64,000 bases of DNA from the sequence record PV159336. One strand, given 5' to 3'. Below, one piece after another: positions 13,686 through 37,892 of the stretch. Origin of the DNA: Escherichia phage W22. The translations under genes and the position numbers were made by a program. Numbering within the stretch: position 1 is the stretch's first letter; each line of letters starts with the position of its first letter. The notes beneath the pieces were generated by a model that saw only the letters and a program-made list of their open reading frames with translations, made no database searches and was not told the DNA's origin.

Positions 13686-13963
13686 TACTTATTCCTTTTG
13701 TTGTTGATCACATCTAAAGCTGTGTAAGGTTTGTTTGTACCGCTGTATTCAAGAATAATTGATACATATTCATAGACCAACTCAAAAGTACCATACATAG
13801 AATCTGCAACTGAAATAAGCATTTCAGTGCCTTTGTCGTTCTTAATTAATGAAAATCTTGCCCCTGGTTTATTGAGCACTTCATATTTCTTACCTGCTGT
13901 CAGCAAACCTGAATACCATTCATTTTGCACAACAGACAAACACTTCAGATAAGTTTTTCTCAT
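13685..13963 (-). CDS. hypothetical protein (92 aa)
   Basis: ORF track. Confidence 0.4.
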   Translation of the reverse strand: MRKTYLKCLSVVQNEWYSGLLTAGKKYEVLNKPGARFSLIKNDKGTEMLISVADSMYGTFELVYEYVSIILEYSGTNKPYTALDVINNKRNK

Positions 13964-14301
13964 TTCTTTTTGCTCCTTCTTTTAGGTTTCTCGTATAAAC
14001 CTAACACAGCCGACTCTTTTGCGCAAATAGGAACTGACTTCATTCCTCGTTTTTTAGCTTCTGGTAGATTCAAAACCCACCAGCCAAACCAGTACAATTC
14101 ATCTTCTGTGAAAGGATCTGCCATAGGATCTGCATCACGTGCTTCAAATTTAGCAAGAGCTTCTTCTATCTTTTCTATTGGAGTATCAAAGACAAAAGCC
14201 TCTGTGTCAAATTTTTGTTTCTTAGGAGCGGCTTTTGCCGCCCCATCTTTAGATGCGCGCTTTGTTACGGATCGCTTCTTCGGTGTTTTCGCCATCAACA
14301 A
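13960..14301 (-). CDS. hypothetical lysine-rich protein, possibly nucleic-acid binding
   Basis: 113 aa; basic N- and C-termini (KKRSVTKRASK, KPKRRSKKK). Confidence 0.4.
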   Translation of the reverse strand: MLMAKTPKKRSVTKRASKDGAAKAAPKKQKFDTEAFVFDTPIEKIEEALAKFEARDADPMADPFTEDELYWFGWWVLNLPEAKKRGMKSVPICAKESAVLGLYEKPKRRSKKK

Positions 14302-14488
14302 CCTCCATGCGGTGTAAGAAATCTTGCTGGAATCGCCAATACTGTTGACCAGTCCTTACATCTTCGTAGATCACAACAGGATCAAATACTTTAGATACAC
14401 CCGCTGGTTTAGGAAAGCCAACTACACGATATAAACCGCCTTTGCTAATACAAGAATATGTTACATCAGTTAAAATTTCTTTTTTCAT
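14249..14488 (-). CDS. hypothetical protein (79 aa)
   Basis: ORF track; overlaps neighbour in another frame. Confidence 0.3.
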   Translation of the reverse strand: MKKEILTDVTYSCISKGGLYRVVGFPKPAGVSKVFDPVVIYEDVRTGQQYWRFQQDFLHRMEVVDGENTEEAIRNKARI

Positions 14489-33147: not shown

Positions 33148-34554
33148 ATGGCAACTTTTCGTGATAAGGTAGTTTCCGTAACCCTTACCTACGGTGCTAC
33201 TTCAATTAGTGAAACACAGTTTGATATCCCTCTAATTCTTACAGGGCATAATGTTACTGGCAATCTTGTAGATTATTTCACTTCTTCAGACGCACTTCTG
33301 CAAGCAGGTTTTGGCACTGCCGATCCAGCTTATAAAATGGCAAAACTACTATTTGACGGTCTGTTCGCACCAGAACAAGTTATCGTCGGTAAGCGTGATG
33401 TTTCTAAAACAACTCTAACTCCAGTAGTTGAATATAGTGCAACTTACGTTATCACTATTAAAGCAAATTCAAAAAGCAAGGACTTCAAGTTTGTTGCCGA
33501 TGATACTGCAACTGCTCAAGAGATTGTTGTTGGTTTAACAGAAATGATCAACGCAGACATGGTGTATAAAGAATTCTTCACTGTGTCAAACGATGGTAGT
33601 GTTATCACTGTAACCCCAGTTGCAGGTAAATACGCTACTATGGATAGTTCAGGATTCACAACTAAAGTAGAATATGCAAATGATATCTTAGAAGATATTG
33701 CTAAAATTGCAGATTATGAAAACAGTTGGTTCTGGTTACTATCTGATTCTCACGCAGAACAAGATATTATCGATCTAGCAGGTTATGTAGAAGAGCACGA
33801 TAAAGTGTATTTCTTCTCTACCTCGCAACCAGGTGTTCTAACTAAAGAAGAAGATAACATTCTAGAACGCTTAGGTGATATGGGCTACAATAACACTTGT
33901 ATGGCATTGTGGATGACTAACGCTGATACAGTGTTCCCAGAGGCTGCTGTAGTTGGTTCTATCTGCTCTGCAACACCAGGTACTACTACCCTGCATGGTA
34001 AAACCCTTGTTGGTATCGAGATTGAAAAACTTGGTCAGACAGCAGAAAACTTTATCGTTCAACAGAATGGTAATATTTACCGTAAAGAACACGGTGTTCT
34101 GTTCTACCGTGATGGTTTCATGGTTAGTGGTTTCTATGTTGACTATGTGGTACACGCTCTGTGGTTCAAAGCTCGTGTAGAAGAATCTCTGTTCGCTCTA
34201 TTTAAACAGCAATCTATGCTTGGTAGTGGTGTTAGAGCAACTTCTGCTGGTCTTGCTTTGATTCGTCAGGCTGTTACTGCAAACCCAATCCAAGTAGGTA
34301 TTAACAATGGTTCTATTGCCAATGAGGTAGTAACTTCAGAGGAAACAGGACTTCTGGTAAGCCTTAAACCTACTATCTATATCCCATCTCGTGCAGATAT
34401 GACTGATGCTCAAATCAATGCACGTTTGGTTGATGGTATGGTTATTGAATACGTATATGCTGGATTCTTCCACTATGTTAAAGTGCAGGTAAACGTTCTG
34501 ACGAACCGCACTGCAAATAGCCAGAATTCCAATAGCTCTACTGTATCTTCATAA
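33148..34554 (+). CDS. tail sheath protein
   Basis: 468 aa; precedes the tube gene, followed by a hairpin; biased codon usage. Confidence 0.45.
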   Translation: MATFRDKVVSVTLTYGATSISETQFDIPLILTGHNVTGNLVDYFTSSDALLQAGFGTADPAYKMAKLLFDGLFAPEQVIVGKRDVSKTTLTPVVEYSATYVITIKANSKSKDFKFVADDTATAQEIVVGLTEMINADMVYKEFFTVSNDGSVITVTPVAGKYATMDSSGFTTKVEYANDILEDIAKIADYENSWFWLLSDSHAEQDIIDLAGYVEEHDKVYFFSTSQPGVLTKEEDNILERLGDMGYNNTCMALWMTNADTVFPEAAVVGSICSATPGTTTLHGKTLVGIEIEKLGQTAENFIVQQNGNIYRKEHGVLFYRDGFMVSGFYVDYVVHALWFKARVEESLFALFKQQSMLGSGVRATSAGLALIRQAVTANPIQVGINNGSIANEVVTSEETGLLVSLKPTIYIPSRADMTDAQINARLVDGMVIEYVYAGFFHYVKVQVNVLTNRTANSQNSNSSTVSS

Positions 34555-34612: not shown

Positions 34613-35092
34613 TTGGATAAAATGCTTACTGGCGTAATGGCCTATGATCCTTCTCAAGTAATCCTGTCTTTGGGTGGTTGGGAACCTTGGGGTTTCGCCG
34701 CAGATACCAAAATTGTTATTAACAAAACTAACGATATCATCAACCCATATTCAGGTACTGATGGTGACGTTTCCTTGGCGCTTAGTCGTAACCGTTTAGG
34801 TACGCTAACAATGTCACTGCAACGTACTTCTCCAGCAAACGAAGTTCTTGCTGCTTATGCACAAACGATGTATTCTACTCGTCAAGTAGCATTTAGCGTA
34901 TATCTGGAAGACCCTCGCGGATATTATATCAGCACAATTGGTTGGATTCAAAGCCAACCGGACGATACTATTGGTGAAACTATTCAAGAAAACCAATGGG
35001 TAATTGGTCTTAAAGATGCAAGCCTACTTCGTTCTACTGTAGGTGTTGGTGTTAACGCACTTAACTCTATTAGTGCTCTAACTATTCAGTAA
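34613..35092 (+). CDS. tail tube protein
   Basis: 159 aa directly after the sheath gene and before the chaperone/tape measure; terminator follows. Confidence 0.45.
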   Translation: MDKMLTGVMAYDPSQVILSLGGWEPWGFAADTKIVINKTNDIINPYSGTDGDVSLALSRNRLGTLTMSLQRTSPANEVLAAYAQTMYSTRQVAFSVYLEDPRGYYISTIGWIQSQPDDTIGETIQENQWVIGLKDASLLRSTVGVGVNALNSISALTIQ

Positions 35093-35093
35093 T

Positions 35094-35121
35094 AAAAAGG
35101 GCAGAAATGCCCTTTATTTTT
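35094..35121 (+). terminator. rho-independent terminator
   Basis: AAAAAGGGCAGAAATGCCCTTTATTTTT. Confidence 0.55.
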
Positions 35122-35135
35122 AAAGAGAGGAAATA

Positions 35136-35618
35136 ATGGAACAACAAAAAGATAATACTATTGCAAAATTTGCTCGTCCAGAAGTAATGGTTGAAATTGA
35201 TCTGGATGAAGGACGCAGTGTAAAATTTAGAGTTCTCAAGTGGAGTCCAACTAAAGTTTTTGAAAGGATTCCAGAACTAGGTAGTGTACTGGCTGTTCCT
35301 ATGACAATGTATAATACTGCTCTTATGTCAGCAGACGAAGATCTAGAAGCTCGTATTGCTATGGCACTGATCCAATTATTCAGTGGTCTGGAAGAAAAAA
35401 ACTTAGCCGCATTCTTACGTAAAATTTTAGATGAAGTTTACACAGAAGCAGGACACAGTGTTTCCGATAATTTTGATGAATTGTTTTTTGCTCACCCAGA
35501 ATTAGTTGTTGACTTAGCTGCAAAAGTTCTTGAGGTGAACTATGCCCCTTTTTTCAAACGAGGTTTCGGAAAACTGTTGACCCAATTTCAAGGAATAGAG
35601 ACTCTAGCGAAGAGTTAA
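35136..35618 (+). CDS. tail assembly chaperone (zero-frame product)
   Basis: 160 aa; position directly upstream of the tape measure gene. Confidence 0.5.
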   Translation: MEQQKDNTIAKFARPEVMVEIDLDEGRSVKFRVLKWSPTKVFERIPELGSVLAVPMTMYNTALMSADEDLEARIAMALIQLFSGLEEKNLAAFLRKILDEVYTEAGHSVSDNFDELFFAHPELVVDLAAKVLEVNYAPFFKRGFGKLLTQFQGIETLAKS

Positions 35619-35893
35619 GTCCGGCAATTAAATCAGCAATTGAAATTGCCTCACAAACCCTTAGCTTGACATGGTATGAAGTAATTCTTTGTAAGGTAAT
35701 TAAGAATACCTCCGAAACCTTGTCCTCGTTAGATAATTATGGTGTAGATTATCTACTTAAAATTTATGAATATTTAACATTTGAAGACTATGTACAAGAT
35801 CTTCACGTTAAAGATGCGGATATTAAACGTGGTCAACAGAGAACAATAAGAGAACTGGATACGGCTATGAAAAAATTAATTCCAGATTCATAA
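35136..35893 (+). CDS. tail assembly chaperone, predicted -1 frameshift fusion product
   Basis: Slippery heptamer T_TTT_TTC at 35549-35555; the -1 frame is open from 35534 to 35893 and contains the 75-aa ORF 35666..35893. Confidence 0.4.
35549..35555 (+). other. candidate -1 programmed ribosomal frameshift slippery site (TTTTTTC)
   Basis: X_XXY_YYZ heptamer in the chaperone reading frame, 61 nt before its stop. Confidence 0.4.
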
Positions 35894-35912
35894 GTAATAC
35901 GGAGGATTACCC

Positions 35913-37892
35913 TTGTTAGAAATTAACACTTCCAAGATTAAGAATACAGTAACGTTTACTGTAGATAAAGACAGTTTAAAAAATACTAAAGACGCAATTA
36001 AAAACCTTAAAACTTTTACAGAATCTATTGAACCATCTTTAAATATGACTAAAATGCGTCGTCAATTTAAAAGTATGGAAGAGTATGCTAAAAGAATAAG
36101 GCAGCAAATGTCAGGTCTTGGCGGCGGTAATCCTCCACCAATCCCACCAACCGGAGGTTCAAGAGGTGGTGGAAAAGGAGGAAGTGGTAGAGGTGGTTCT
36201 GGATCTTCTGGAGGACGTAAAACACCAGAGGAAAGAGCCGCAGAAGCCGCCGCTAAACGTGCAGCACTTGCTAATATGAAGCAAGACGATTTTAGTTTTA
36301 AAGCTATGCCTTTTACAAAAGCAGACAGCAGAATTCTAGAAAAATCTAAAAAGATTGTAGAAGAAACTGTTGAACTTTATCGTAAAGGTGTAATCACTAG
36401 CCAACAAATGAATAATACTTTGGCTAGACAGTTAGAAGAACTACGAAGATCTCATAGAGAGAAGAATGCACAACTTCTTGATGAAGAGAGAGCTAGACGT
36501 AGAATTGCCCGTCTGCAAGAAGCAGAAGATAAAAGAAGACAGCGTATCCGAGAAAGAGAAAGAAAGGATTTCGAACGTCAGCAAAGAAGAGAGAAAGAAG
36601 CAAGACAACGAGATAGACAACGTAAGCTATCTGGTGTAGGTAATGCTGCTATTGCTCTTAACCCTGCTATGTTTGGTGCTGCTCTTTTAGGTGCTGGTTT
36701 ATATCAAGGTATAAGCAAAATAGCTGAAAATATTACAGCGGCGGCAGAACGTATTAATATGGTTAGTAAAGGTGGTCAGAACGTACAGGTAAACCCTAAC
36801 GCAATTTTAACAATGCGTACTTGGGGTGAAATGAACGGTGTAGACTCTGCCAGCATTATTAAAGCCATTGACAATATTAAAGACGTTCGTGAACGTTTAG
36901 GTAATACTGTACTCCACTCTGAATTTGATGAAAAATCAGGTAAATGGAAAGGTGGAGACAGTGGTATTAATGAAATCATGAACCAATTTGGTTGGTCGAA
37001 AGAAGATGTTGCTAAATTCCAGAACAGACCTCTAGACTTTGTTCAAGCACTTGTTAATGAAGGTCAAAAAAGAGGAATGAACTCCGCGCAAATTGGTCGT
37101 TTGATGGAAAACCTTGGTGATGACTTAATGCACTACCAACGTATGTTTTTGGATAACGGTAAAGAGTATATGAAAGTCTTGGATATGTTAAAAAATTCAG
37201 GAGCAACTCTTAACGATGAAAACATCAAAGCAGCACAAGATTTTGTTAAACTAAGAGCAGAAATTAGTGCAGCAGGAGAAGGTTTTACCAATAACTTACT
37301 TGTAGGTTTTATGGATGGTTTAAAATCTGCACCAGATTTTGCAGAAAATATGAAAACTTTCCAAGAAGCTGCTCGTGGTCTTGGTGAAATGTCTGGTAGT
37401 ATTGTAAGTAGCCTTGCAAAAATTGCAAAATATTTCCTTGATTTTTCCAATAAGGTTGGGCCAAAAAACAATACTAAAGAAGCTGTAAGAGATTATTATA
37501 ATGGTACGCAGTATGGGTACGATGCACAGGTTGGTGGTAATCCTTGGGCTTATTGGCCTATTGGAAGAGATCAACATAAACCTGAAAATCAACCTTTAGG
37601 TGACTTTGATAGTAGTTTCTTAACTAGCGCCTTAAATCCAAGTGCTTCTAGTATTGGTTACAACAGACCTGATTTAACAGCATCTATGCTAACACCACGC
37701 CAAGGTGTTCCAGTACCGTTAAGTCTAGAGAATACGGTTGTTATCCCAGACAACGCATTCCAGATTAATGTTATTCCAGATGGTTATGGTTTTAGTAATT
37801 ATCTAGATGCGACAATGAATACCAGTTTTAGTAACTTCTCACAAGGTTTAACTCTTCAGTTAAGCAGTGGACAATCTTCTACTGGTGGTTAA
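35913..37892 (+). CDS. tail tape measure protein
   Basis: 659 aa; Gly-rich low-complexity stretch, Arg/Glu-rich coiled-coil region; TTG start after GGAGG. Confidence 0.55.
   Translation: MLEINTSKIKNTVTFTVDKDSLKNTKDAIKNLKTFTESIEPSLNMTKMRRQFKSMEEYAKRIRQQMSGLGGGNPPPIPPTGGSRGGGKGGSGRGGSGSSGGRKTPEERAAEAAAKRAALANMKQDDFSFKAMPFTKADSRILEKSKKIVEETVELYRKGVITSQQMNNTLARQLEELRRSHREKNAQLLDEERARRRIARLQEAEDKRRQRIRERERKDFERQQRREKEARQRDRQRKLSGVGNAAIALNPAMFGAALLGAGLYQGISKIAENITAAAERINMVSKGGQNVQVNPNAILTMRTWGEMNGVDSASIIKAIDNIKDVRERLGNTVLHSEFDEKSGKWKGGDSGINEIMNQFGWSKEDVAKFQNRPLDFVQALVNEGQKRGMNSAQIGRLMENLGDDLMHYQRMFLDNGKEYMKVLDMLKNSGATLNDENIKAAQDFVKLRAEISAAGEGFTNNLLVGFMDGLKSAPDFAENMKTFQEAARGLGEMSGSIVSSLAKIAKYFLDFSNKVGPKNNTKEAVRDYYNGTQYGYDAQVGGNPWAYWPIGRDQHKPENQPLGDFDSSFLTSALNPSASSIGYNRPDLTASMLTPRQGVPVPLSLENTVVIPDNAFQINVIPDGYGFSNYLDATMNTSFSNFSQGLTLQLSSGQSSTGG

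What the first reader, a model, noticed from the sequence alone, without database searches (positions are those of the whole stretch)
35136..35893. Candidate -1 programmed frameshift in the tail assembly chaperone
The chaperone ORF contains the canonical slippery heptamer T_TTT_TTC (35549-35555) 61 nt before its stop, and the -1 frame is open from 35534 through the 75-aa ORF ending at 35893, just before the tape measure gene. This matches the conserved long-tailed-phage arrangement in which a short and a frameshift-extended chaperone are both made.
Basis: seen in the sequence. Interest (0 to 1): 0.5.

Follow-up and report, generated by a model that had tools for sequence, protein, structure and literature searches.

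The report
Frameshift site in phage tail chaperone
This phi92-like E. coli phage almost certainly makes a short and a long tail-assembly chaperone from one gene by letting some ribosomes slip back one base at a conserved TTTTTTC; the trick is textbook for tailed phages, but public records of this phage group do not annotate it.

Summary
The window is a phi92-like coliphage (Justusliebigvirus). ORF 35136-35618 (phi92 gp132) is a tail assembly chaperone lying between the tail tube and tape measure genes. An in-frame T_TTT_TTC (35549-35555) sits inside an 85-nt overlap with a -1 frame that stays open to 35893 (phi92 gp133). A -1 slip gives a 252-aa fusion.

One genome alone is weak evidence: about 0.12 in-frame heptamers are expected by chance in the overlap. 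Comparison is decisive. All 14 GenBank lineages and all 31 unique IMG/VR relatives, down to about 30% protein identity, keep TTT-TTC and a preceding wobble T, even though that residue varies (Pro, Cys or Ser) and other invariant residues use mixed codons. The stretch with no start codon (35619-35665) evolves as -1-frame coding sequence. ORF2 has no conserved start or ribosome-binding site. More distant relatives carry other slippery motifs (G_GTT_TTT, G_GGA_AAG, A_AAT_TTT) in the same -1 layout.

No downstream RNA structure was found. An upstream Shine-Dalgarno-like GAGGTGA may stimulate the shift.

Verdict: a real lambda G/GT-type programmed -1 frameshift. It is a new member of a known kind, proposed in 2025 for sister clades, and is useful mainly as an annotation fix. 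No experimental evidence exists.

The parts
33148..34554 (+). Tail sheath gene (context).
   Evidence: phrog_205 tail sheath, 3.4e-104; PF11863.
34613..35092 (+). Tail tube gene (phi92 gp131 homologue; context).
   Evidence: phrog_280 and PF11681. gp131 is the tube protein in the phi92 cryo-EM paper PMC13450770.
35096..35125 (+). Terminator-like hairpin with a T-run, between the tube gene and the chaperone gene.
   Evidence: Annotated as a terminator in the PATM and phAPEC8 records.
35136..35618 (+). TAC-N: the zero-frame tail assembly chaperone ORF, 160 aa (phi92 gp132). GAGG at 35127-35130 is its ribosome-binding site.
   Evidence: The AF2 model has pLDDT 72, with best matches to TACs of Hena1, Barbavirus and Moogle, and weakly to HK97 TAC 2ob9.
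35532..35538 (+). Shine-Dalgarno-like GAGGTGA, 10 nt upstream of the heptamer. A possible 5' stimulator (inferred).
   Evidence: GAGG, GGAG or GGAGG at this position in 28 of 37 unique sequences, including all Stephanstirmvirinae. Glu133 is GAG 26 times and GAA 5 times, against a genome usage of GAA 284: GAG 57.
35546..35555 (+). Slippery tract CCCTTTTTTC. The conserved heptamer is T_TTT_TTC (35549-35555); it overlaps C_CCT_TTT (35546-35552). A shift at either gives the same protein.
   Evidence: H_HH.U_UU.Y heptamers are among the most efficient in E. coli (PMC4066793).
35555..35893 (+). The -1-frame extension read after the slip: 112 codons plus stop. With residues 1-140 of TAC-N it gives the 252-aa long form (TAC-NC).
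   Evidence: The extension matches phrog_16039 at 3.2e-45.
35556..35618 (+). Dual-coding overlap. The zero frame encodes the KRGFGKLL... tail of TAC-N. The -1 frame encodes QTRFRKT... and the start of a variable linker.
   Evidence: Variation peaks at the zero-frame wobble position. G143 is GGT in 14 of 14 lineages, and RFR is conserved in the -1 frame.
35619..35665 (+). 'Intergenic' gap with no start codon that is nevertheless coding in the -1 frame (ELSPAIKSAIEIASQTLS).
   Evidence: Pairwise differences at codon positions 1/2/3 are 53/30/109, the same pattern as ORF2 (234/137/391). No ATG, GTG or TTG between 35534 and 35666.
35666..35893 (+). The 75-aa ORF as called in databases (phi92 gp133). 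This is really the C-terminal part of TAC-NC.
   Evidence: No SD before the TTG. The phi92 record lists RBS features for genes 132 and 134 but none for 133. Annotated starts differ between records, or the ORF is not called.
35913..37892 (+). Tape measure protein gene (phi92 gp134), the presumed client of the chaperone.
   Evidence: phrog_16051, E = 0. gp134 is the TMP in PMC13450770.

Best explanation
**What it is.** This is a lambda G/GT-type programmed -1 ribosomal frameshift in the tail assembly chaperone gene of a phi92-like myovirus.

**Short form (shown from sequence).** Most ribosomes read 35136-35618 and make the 160-aa short chaperone, TAC-N.

**Long form (inferred).** A minority slip back one base when tRNA-Phe occupies TTT (P site) and TTC (A site) of T_TTT_TTC at 35549-35555, re-pairing with TTT-TTT. 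An equivalent slip one codon earlier, on C_CCT_TTT, gives the same product. These ribosomes continue in the -1 frame to 35893 and make a 252-aa long form, TAC-NC. It consists of TAC-N residues 1-140, a variable linker rich in charged and small residues (Gly/Ser-rich in relatives), and a conserved helical C-domain.

**Function (by analogy with lambda gpG/gpGT; not tested here).** Both forms coat the tape measure protein gp134. The C-domain of the rare long form recruits tail tube subunits. Neither form stays in the virion.

**What sets the rate (inferred).** The slippery tract itself sets the frequency. The Shine-Dalgarno-like GAGGTGA 10 nt upstream may help. No downstream RNA structure is involved.
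For: **Geometry.** Frames, heptamer register and ORF limits are confirmed.

**Gene identity and position.** PF21822 Phage_TAC_15 at 1.6e-22 and phrog_3840 at 4e-54. The gene order is sheath, tube, TAC, ORF2, TMP. The TAC-N model matches phage TACs.

**Conservation.** T_TTT_TTC is in frame inside an open -1 window of 110-149 codons in 5 Stephanstirmvirinae lineages, 9 Vequintavirinae lineages and 31 of 31 unique IMG/VR loci. One IMG/VR locus (L051) reaches the contig end before its -1 stop. The +1 frame is never comparably open.

**Nucleotide-level selection.** F139 is TTT and F140 is TTC in 14 of 14 lineages, and residue 138 is Pro, Cys or Ser but always NNT. Other invariant residues use mixed codons, for example F31 8 TTT / 6 TTC and F117 5 / 9. 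The genome otherwise avoids TTT-TTC for Phe-Phe (3 of 38 sites).

**Coding gap.** The start-less gap 35619-35665 shows third-position-dominated substitutions in the -1 frame.

**No independent start.** ORF2 has no conserved start or SD. The first possible start lies inside the conserved peptide in KB57 and phiTE.

**Motif turnover in distant relatives.** Felix O1-like Alf5 has the same site. Pakpuna- and Nankokuviruses have G_GTT_TTT. Barbavirus has G_GGA_AAG. Vibrio qdvp001 has A_AAT_TTT. All have 100-126 open -1 codons.

**Motif efficiency.** U_UU.C is the second-best tetramer and H_HH.U_UU.Y are top-class heptamers in E. coli (PMC4066793).

**Virion content.** gp132 and gp133 are not among the phi92 virion proteins (PMC13450770).

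**Precedent.** The same case was made for sister clades (PMC12846349).
Against: - There is no protein, ribosome-profiling or reporter evidence for this phage group. Everything rests on comparative sequence analysis.
- No stimulatory structure lies downstream. Fold z-scores are 0.11-0.15, consensus folds are about -6 kcal/mol, and the covariation terms are unfavourable. The efficiency is therefore unknown and could be very low.
- The SD-like element is absent in 9 of 37 unique sequences, including phiTE, KB57 and SSBI34. It also overlaps conserved Leu-Glu-Val codons.
- The 45 relatives are phylogenetically related, not independent trials.
- One of the two patterns used to find the IMG/VR loci contained the FF motif, at the amino-acid level only.
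- The structure of the C-terminal extension could not be modelled (pLDDT 46), so its tube-binding role is pure analogy.
Confidence: 0.88

Rival explanations
1. Transcriptional slippage. RNA polymerase adds one extra U in the T6 run (35549-35554). Normal translation of that mRNA subpopulation yields exactly the same 252-aa protein (…P F F Q T R…).
For: The tract is a homopolymer. A +1-nt mRNA insertion gives a product indistinguishable from the -1 ribosomal product (direct reading of the sequence). Sharma et al. note that U7 and A7 runs are avoided in all frames, possibly because of slippage (PMC4066793).
Against: Efficient bacterial transcriptional slippage is described for runs of about 9 A or T (PMC5009743), and this run is only 6. 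Homologous loci keep the -1 layout with motifs that are not homopolymers: G_GGA_AAG in Barbavirus, A_AAT_TTT in Vibrio qdvp001, and a T5 run in Nankokuvirus Ab03. The conserved feature is the in-register X_XXY_YYZ pattern ending in C. TTT-TTT would make a longer run but is never used.
Confidence: 0.05
2. Two separate genes. The 75-aa ORF (gp133) is translated on its own from the TTG at 35666, or by reinitiation after the stop at 35616-35618. The heptamer is incidental.
For: This is how most GenBank records annotate it. The heptamer alone would occur by chance in the overlap with probability of about 0.1.
Against: - No SD precedes the TTG, and no start codon is conserved in position across lineages.
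- In KB57 and phiTE the first start lies 146 and 89 nt downstream of the zero-frame stop, within the conserved peptide.
- The 47 nt upstream of the TTG are under -1-frame coding selection and contain no start codon.
- The heptamer is invariant at synonymous sites in 45 of 45 relatives.
- Several annotators did not call ORF2 at all.
Confidence: 0.04
3. A non-functional relic. The -1 ORF is a decaying remnant or a sequencing or assembly frameshift in what is really one continuous gene.
For: Homopolymer runs are classic sites of sequencing indels.
Against: The same T6 length and the same two-frame layout recur in more than 130 independently sequenced phage records and in 31 metagenomic loci. Both the zero-frame tail and the -1 extension are under purifying selection. 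None of the 45 proteins returned by a database search with the fusion spans the junction as a continuous ORF.
Confidence: 0.01

Closest known systems
Phage lambda gpG/gpGT, and the conserved tail-chaperone frameshift of long-tailed dsDNA phages (Levin, Hendrix and Casjens 1993; Xu, Hendrix and Duda 2004, 2013, 2014; summarised in PMC5009743)
   Same: - Two overlapping ORFs between the major tail (tube) gene and the tape measure gene.
- The second ORF is in the -1 frame and has no start of its own.
[quoted passage not shown]
- The products are absent from the virion.
   Different: - The heptamer is T_TTT_TTC, not G_GGA_AAG.
- No sequence similarity to gpG was seen here: Pfam assigns the protein to the separate family PF21822.
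- The host virion is a 148-kb contractile-tailed phage.
- There is a possible upstream SD-like stimulator.
- The product ratio and the binding partners are untested.
TAC-N/TAC-NC -1 frameshift proposed for Vandenendeviridae (Pakpunavirus and relatives) and Andersonviridae (Felix O1-like, Moogle) (phage Adele paper, Viruses 2025, PMC12846349)
   Same: - A homologous virion module and a homologous chaperone motif (N-[YF]-G-x-F-F).
- The same kind of comparative argument: the -1 frame is always open and a T-run is conserved near the 3' end of TAC-N.
- I confirmed that Felix O1-like Alf5 has the identical T_TTT_TTC at the homologous position.
   Different: - That paper did not analyse the TAC locus of Stephanstirmvirinae or Vequintavirinae.
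- Its 'invariant GTTTTT' motif does not hold here, because phi92-like phages have CCCTTTTTTC with no G.
- Pakpuna- and Nankokuviruses use the non-canonical G_GTT_TTT in a different register. The window's clade has a canonical heptamer, doubled as C_CCT_TTT/T_TTT_TTC.
E. coli dnaX and IS-element -1 frameshift cassettes (5' SD-like element, heptamer, 3' hairpin or pseudoknot)
   Same: A canonical heptamer of the efficient E. coli class. An SD-like sequence (GAGGTGA) lies 10 nt upstream, which is the spacing I recall for dnaX. U_UU.U_UU.C is used by some IS elements (PMC4066793).
   Different: No 3' stimulatory structure was detected. The SD-like element is not universal among relatives. The purpose is to set a structural protein ratio, not to make a polymerase subunit or a transposase.
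Phage T7 gene 10A/10B frameshift (G_GUU_UUC)
   Same: A U-rich slippery site decoded by tRNA-Phe that gives a minor C-terminally extended structural product. The Pakpunavirus relatives' G_GTT_TTT resembles it closely (PMC12846349).
   Different: It is a capsid protein, not a chaperone. The T7 site is non-canonical in the P site, whereas the window's site is fully canonical.

Membership tests
Lambda G/GT-type tail assembly chaperone with programmed -1 frameshift | The gene pair lies directly between the major tail/tube gene and the tape measure gene. | tested here: met
   Order: sheath 33148-34554, tube 34613-35092, TAC 35136-35618, ORF2 to 35893, TMP 35913-37892.
Lambda G/GT-type tail assembly chaperone with programmed -1 frameshift | The second ORF overlaps the 3' end of the first in the -1 frame and has no translation start of its own. 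| tested here: met
   85-nt overlap. No ATG, GTG or TTG from 35534 to 35665. No SD before the TTG at 35666. No conserved start in 14 lineages.
Lambda G/GT-type tail assembly chaperone with programmed -1 frameshift | A slippery sequence in the overlap, in the correct register, allows both tRNAs to re-pair in the -1 frame. | tested here: met
   T_TTT_TTC at 35549-35555 (plus C_CCT_TTT at 35546-35552). This motif class is efficient in E. coli (PMC4066793).
Lambda G/GT-type tail assembly chaperone with programmed -1 frameshift | The arrangement is conserved among relatives despite sequence divergence. | tested here: met
   45 of 45 distinct loci. Synonymous-site control. Motif turnover with a retained -1 layout in 5 more distant clades.
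Lambda G/GT-type tail assembly chaperone with programmed -1 frameshift | The upstream product belongs to a tail assembly chaperone family or fold. | tested here: met
   PF21822 at 80.8 bits (cut-off 22); phrog_3840 at 4.4e-54. BFVD matches to TACs at E = 7e-9 and 9e-7. The PDB match to HK97 TAC 2ob9 is only weak (E 0.3).
Lambda G/GT-type tail assembly chaperone with programmed -1 frameshift | Both the short and the long product are made, the long one as a minor species. Both are needed for tail assembly and are absent from virions. | not testable with these tools
   Indirect evidence only: gp132 and gp133 are not among the proteins built into the phi92 virion structure (PMC13450770).
Lambda G/GT-type tail assembly chaperone with programmed -1 frameshift | The N part binds the tape measure protein; the frameshift-encoded C-domain binds the tail tube protein. 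| not testable with these tools
   The model of the extension was unusable (pLDDT 45.9).
dnaX/IS-type -1 frameshift cassette | A 3' stimulatory hairpin or pseudoknot 5-9 nt downstream of the heptamer. | tested here: not met
   z = 0.11 and 0.15 against shuffles. RNAalifold gave -6.3 and -5.8 kcal/mol, with positive covariation terms, in two subfamily alignments.
dnaX/IS-type -1 frameshift cassette | A 5' Shine-Dalgarno-like stimulator about 10-14 nt upstream of the heptamer. | tested here: inconclusive
   GAGGTGA at 35532-35538 with a 10-nt spacer. Present in 28 of 37 unique sequences. The GAG codon is favoured against genome usage, but it overlaps conserved Leu-Glu-Val codons.
Transcriptional-slippage recoding | A long homopolymeric A or T run (about 9 or more) at the recoding site. 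| tested here: not met
   The run is T6. Relatives use non-homopolymeric heptamers. The threshold is taken from PMC5009743.

The most novel reading that the evidence does not exclude
The phi92-like site may be an unusually built, structure-free cassette. It would combine two overlapping canonical heptamers (C_CCU_UUU_UUC, giving the ribosome two consecutive chances to slip to the same product) with a dnaX-style internal Shine-Dalgarno stimulator (GAGGTGA, 10 nt upstream). Across the wider Felix O1 / rV5 / phi92 / Pakpunavirus chaperone superfamily, the slip motif has been swapped repeatedly (T_TTT_TTC, G_GTT_TTT, G_GGA_AAG, A_AAT_TTT) while the -1 layout stayed fixed. That would make the family a natural series for studying how frameshift efficiency is tuned without RNA structure.
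Probability: 0.3. Interest if true: 0.4.

Novelty: new member of a known kind. Interest (0 to 1): 0.3.

Why it matters
**Annotation.** None of the 25 related GenBank/RefSeq records whose annotation I read (23 distinct phages) marks a frameshift. They give gp133 as a separate hypothetical protein with inconsistent starts, or do not call it. Feature names for about 100 more records list the same two kinds of entry. None of the 45 proteins returned by a database search with the fusion spans the junction. Recognising one gene with two products corrects the gene model of therapeutically used coliphage groups (Justusliebigvirus, Phapecoctavirus, Vequintavirus and others). It also assigns a function to a widespread 'hypothetical protein' (phrog_16039).

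**Biology.** It extends the G/GT rule to another large clade of contractile-tailed phages. The same ancestral site is shared with Felix O1-like phages, and other clades have replaced it with different slippery motifs. It is not surprising to a specialist.

Tried and rejected
- **Downstream stimulatory structure.** I folded 65-nt and 125-nt stretches after the heptamer and ran RNAalifold on two subfamily alignments. Nothing rose above shuffled controls and there was no covariation, so I rejected it as part of the mechanism.
- **A_AAA_AAC at 35396-35402 as an alternative shift site.** Rejected: the -1 frame closes after 8 codons and the motif is not conserved.
- **+1 frameshift.** Rejected: the +1 frame is closed within a few codons in the window. 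In relatives its open stretch at the TAC 3' end is at most 63 codons, against 110-149 in the -1 frame.
- **Structure of the long form.** The extension folded alone gave pLDDT 46 and is unusable.
- **Sequence search of the PDB with the TAC-N profile.** No meaningful hit.
- **A second 'heptamer plus long open -1 frame' case at 13925-14317.** It is a spurious antisense ORF.
- **Literature.** Searches for a frameshift statement on phi92, rV5, phAPEC8, PVP-SE1, Vequintavirinae or Stephanstirmvirinae found none. The library does not cover subscription journals, so absence is not proof.
Full report
**1. What the window is**

The 1.8 kb around the finding is 99.8% identical to Escherichia phage vB_EcoM_AMO3598 and about 99.3% identical to phage phi92 (Justusliebigvirus, Stephanstirmvirinae). 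The two ORFs in question are phi92 gp132 and gp133. The local gene order is:

| Coordinates | Gene |
|---|---|
| 33148-34554 | tail sheath |
| 34613-35092 | tail tube |
| 35136-35618 | 160-aa ORF (gp132) |
| 35666-35893 | 75-aa ORF (gp133) |
| 35913-37892 | tape measure protein |

**2. Checking the observation**

- The 160-aa ORF is in the frame with position mod 3 = 0.
- The -1 frame has a TGA at 35531-35533 and then no stop until the TAA at 35891-35893.
- T_TTT_TTC at 35549-35555 is in the correct register: CCT TTT TTC encodes Pro138-Phe139-Phe140.
- 60 nt separate the heptamer from the stop codon at 35616-35618.
- The first possible start codon in the -1 frame is the TTG at 35666.
- Slipping at the heptamer gives a 252-aa protein: 140 residues from the zero frame plus 112 from the -1 frame.

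An overlapping C_CCT_TTT (35546-35552) would give the same product. A third in-frame heptamer, A_AAA_AAC (35396-35402), is followed by a -1 stop after 8 codons.

**3. Is it more than chance?**

In one genome, only weakly. Across 58 long ORFs of the window there are 73 in-frame XXXYYYZ heptamers in 17,632 codon positions, so about 0.12 are expected in a 28-codon overlap. Three features still stand out.
- Apart from one spurious antisense ORF (13925-14317), no other heptamer is followed by more than 33 open -1 codons. The TAC site has 114-115.
- The genome encodes Phe-Phe as TTC-first in 32 of 38 cases. It uses TTT-TTC only three times.
- The real weight comes from the comparisons below.

**4. 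Identity of the gene**

The 160-aa protein matches Pfam PF21822 (Phage_TAC_15; 80.8 bits against a cut-off of 22) and phrog_3840 'tail assembly chaperone' (4.4e-54). The -1 extension matches phrog_16039, a family of unknown function (3.2e-45).

An AlphaFold2 model of TAC-N built with 22 database homologues has pLDDT 72 and pTM 0.65. Its confident core ends at about residue 144, just past the shift site. Its best matches are:
- predicted TACs of Erwinia phage Hena1 (E = 7e-9) and Rheinheimera Barbavirus (9e-7), and Moogle's 212-aa 'tape measure chaperone' (E = 0.036);
- the HK97 tail assembly chaperone 2ob9 as the top PDB hit, but only weakly (E = 0.3).

**5. Comparative test within the two subfamilies**

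I examined five Stephanstirmvirinae lineages at 65-100% DNA identity (window/phi92, Klebsiella KP13-26/FKP3, phAPEC8/SKA64, phiWec181/PsgM04F, Klebsiella 05F01). I also examined nine Vequintavirinae lineages at about 30% protein identity (rV5, SSE121, Hena1, phiTE, KB57, GAP31, SSBI34, ABPH49, 24-2-1).
- In all 14, T_TTT_TTC is in frame and encodes the FF of an N-Y-G-x-F-F motif (Ala replaces the Gly in the window and phi92).
- It lies 60 nt (Stephanstirmvirinae) or 90-102 nt (Vequintavirinae) before the zero-frame stop.
- It sits inside a -1 frame open for 117-136 codons.

A search of IMG/VR with the TAC-N alignment used two peptide patterns. One is unrelated to the shift site, and neither constrains codon choice. 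It returned 43 loci, of which 31 are unique, and all 31 show the same arrangement. Their -1 ORFs are 110-149 codons long; one (L051) reaches the contig end before its -1 stop. The +1 frame is never comparably open.

**6. Selection acts on the nucleotides, not only on the protein**

| Position in the 14-lineage alignment | Codons used |
|---|---|
| F31 (invariant) | 8 TTT, 6 TTC |
| F117 (invariant) | 5 TTT, 9 TTC |
| Invariant Pro, Ala, Asp, Leu, Tyr | mixed synonymous codons |
| F139 | TTT in 14 of 14 |
| F140 | TTC in 14 of 14 |
| Residue 138 | Pro (CCT), Cys (TGT) or Ser (AGT): always ends in T |

That pattern is what a requirement for X_XXY_YYZ predicts. G143 is GGT in 14 of 14 lineages, which fits dual coding: the -1 frame reads a conserved Arg-Phe-Arg there. 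This places the shift at or just upstream of that motif.

**7. The 'intergenic' gap is coding in the -1 frame**

Between the zero-frame stop and the TTG (35619-35665) there is no start codon. Yet pairwise differences among five lineages fall 53/30/109 on -1-frame codon positions 1/2/3. ORF2 proper shows the same signature (234/137/391). Inside the overlap (35555-35618), variation peaks at the zero-frame wobble position (93/53/61), so the zero-frame tail is the more constrained reading there.

**8. ORF2 has no start of its own**

- In the window the TTG at 35666 has no SD.
- Across lineages the first candidate start moves about and almost never has an SD.
- In KB57 the first candidate lies 146 nt past the zero-frame stop, and in phiTE 89 nt. 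Both are well inside the conserved peptide.
- The phi92 RefSeq record lists RBS features for genes 132 and 134 but none for 133.
- Deposited annotations call ORF2 with different starts or not at all, and none joins the two ORFs.
- A search of 5.8 billion protein clusters with the fusion returned 45 proteins of 151-175 aa. None covers more than 60% of the query.

**9. More distant relatives**

I reached these through the tail tube protein.

| Phage (group) | Slippery motif |
|---|---|
| Alf5 (Felix O1-like) | T_TTT_TTC at the homologous N-F-G-S-F-F position |
| PAK_P4 and Ab03 (Vandenendeviridae) | G_GTT_TTT, like T7 gene 10 |
| Rheinheimera Barbavirus | Phe-Phe lost; lambda-type G_GGA_AAG a few codons downstream |
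| Vibrio qdvp001 | A_AAT_TTT |

In every case the -1 frame is open for 100-126 codons up to the tape measure region. One slippery motif replacing another while the -1 layout stays fixed is strong evidence that ribosomal slippage is the selected function. It also argues against transcriptional slippage, which needs a long homopolymer. Runs of about 9 are the described case (PMC5009743).

**10. Stimulators**

RNA after the heptamer folds no better than shuffles (z = 0.11 and 0.15). Consensus folds of both subfamilies are weak, about -6 kcal/mol, with unfavourable covariation terms.

Upstream, GAGGTGA (35532-35538) matches the SD consensus and lies 10 nt before the heptamer. A 5' SD is described as a major feature of dnaX frameshifting and of about 56% of IS elements (PMC5009743).
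- GAGG, GGAG or GGAGG occupies this position in 28 of 37 unique sequences, including all Stephanstirmvirinae.
- Glu133 is GAG 26 times and GAA 5 times, although the window's structural genes use GAA 284 times and GAG 57 times.
- It is absent in phiTE, KB57, SSBI34 and some others, and it overlaps conserved Leu-Glu-Val codons.

I therefore rate it as suggestive only.

**11. Motif efficiency**

In E. coli, U_UU.C is the second most shift-prone A-site tetramer after A_AA.G. H_HH.U_UU.Y heptamers, which include both U_UU.U_UU.C and C_CC.U_UU.U, are among the most efficient. U_UU.U_UU.C shifts above 0.1% without any stimulator, is under-represented in genes, and is used by IS elements (PMC4066793).

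**12. What is known**

The lambda G/GT frameshift and its conservation across long-tailed dsDNA phages is established knowledge (Levin et al. 1993; Xu et al. 2004, 2013, 2014). PMC5009743 summarises it:
- the G:GT ratio is about 30:1;
- the G part binds the tape measure protein;
- the T domain binds the major tail protein;
- neither product is in the virion.

For this wider clade, PMC12846349 (Viruses, December 2025) argued for a -1 frameshift with a conserved GTTTTT motif in the TAC-N gene of Vandenendeviridae and Andersonviridae. It noted that Moogle's annotation already suspected the site. It also stated that these families are related to Vequintavirinae and Stephanstirmvirinae, but it did not analyse their chaperone locus.

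I found no statement of the frameshift for phi92-, phAPEC8-, rV5- or PVP-SE1-like phages. The rV5 genome and proteome paper and the 2026 phi92 whole-virion structure paper both contain zero occurrences of 'frameshift'. gp132 and gp133 are absent from the phi92 structure. The paper library excludes most subscription journals, so priority cannot be excluded.

**13. Verdict**

This is a genuine lambda G/GT-type programmed -1 frameshift in a TAC of family PF21822.

It is a new member of a known kind, not a new mechanism. Its value lies in:
- correcting gene models for a large group of therapeutic coliphages;
- giving a function to phrog_16039;
- showing that the site is shared with Felix O1-like phages, while the published 'invariant GTTTTT' motif does not hold in phi92-like phages (CCCTTTTTTC).

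Efficiency, the role of the SD-like element, and the binding partners of the C-domain remain untested.

Noticed in passing
window 35096-35125: An 8-bp hairpin (AAAGGGCA-GAAA-TGCCCTTT) followed by ATTTTT lies between the tail tube stop and the chaperone start. It is terminator-like on both strands and is annotated as a terminator in the PATM and phAPEC8 records. It may lower chaperone and TMP transcription relative to the tube gene.
   Followed up: partly
window 35396-35402: A second in-frame canonical heptamer, A_AAA_AAC, lies inside the chaperone gene. A -1 slip there would terminate after 8 codons (stop at 35420). It is A_AAA_AAT in the Klebsiella relatives and absent in phAPEC8, so it is probably incidental.
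   Followed up: partly
GenBank records MG065639, MG065645, MG065656, MG065689 and others: Records about 99% identical to this coliphage locus are labelled as Campylobacter phages. Other phages with this locus (74-99.7% DNA identity) are labelled Serratia, Salmonella, Acinetobacter or Pseudomonas phages, and rV5-like 'Campylobacter phages' also appear. These host labels look doubtful.
   Followed up: no
whole window, 58 long ORFs: Phe-Phe dipeptides are encoded TTC-first in 32 of 38 cases. TTT-TTT and TTT-TTC occur only 3 times each. This looks like a general avoidance of long T-runs in coding sequence.
   Followed up: partly
window 13925-14317 (+): A 130-aa plus-strand ORF with in-frame AAATTTA/AAATTTT followed by 82 and 61 open -1 codons looked like a second candidate. 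It is antisense to the real minus-strand genes (13960-14301, 14249-14488), so it is spurious.
   Followed up: yes
L067 3431-4108 (Rheinheimera phage barba_10-9C); L065 1722-2498 (PAK_P4): In Barbavirus, a reverse-strand 'putative DNA binding protein' gene sits between the chaperone extension ORF and the tape measure gene. In PAK_P4, a putative endonuclease gene sits between the sheath and tube genes. Both are insertions into an otherwise conserved tail module.
   Followed up: no
PV659873.1 Escherichia phage WPEC1 (hits H96, H122): This 161-kb Phapecoctavirus-like record matches the chaperone locus at 4 places, in 2-3 pieces. That may be a duplication or an assembly problem.
   Followed up: no
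window 35913-36300: The tape measure gene starts with TTG behind a strong GGAGG (35903-35907). About 70 residues in, it carries a Gly/Ser/Pro-rich low-complexity stretch (GGGNPPPIPPTGGSRGGGKGGSGRGGSGSSGG).
   Followed up: no
BFVD entry A0A088C4M6: An unnamed 255-aa viral protein matches the TAC-N model (E = 6.7e-4, TMq 0.59). Its length is in the same class as the 252-aa fusion, so it may be a long form that someone already annotated as frameshifted. It could not be identified with the tables at hand.
   Followed up: no
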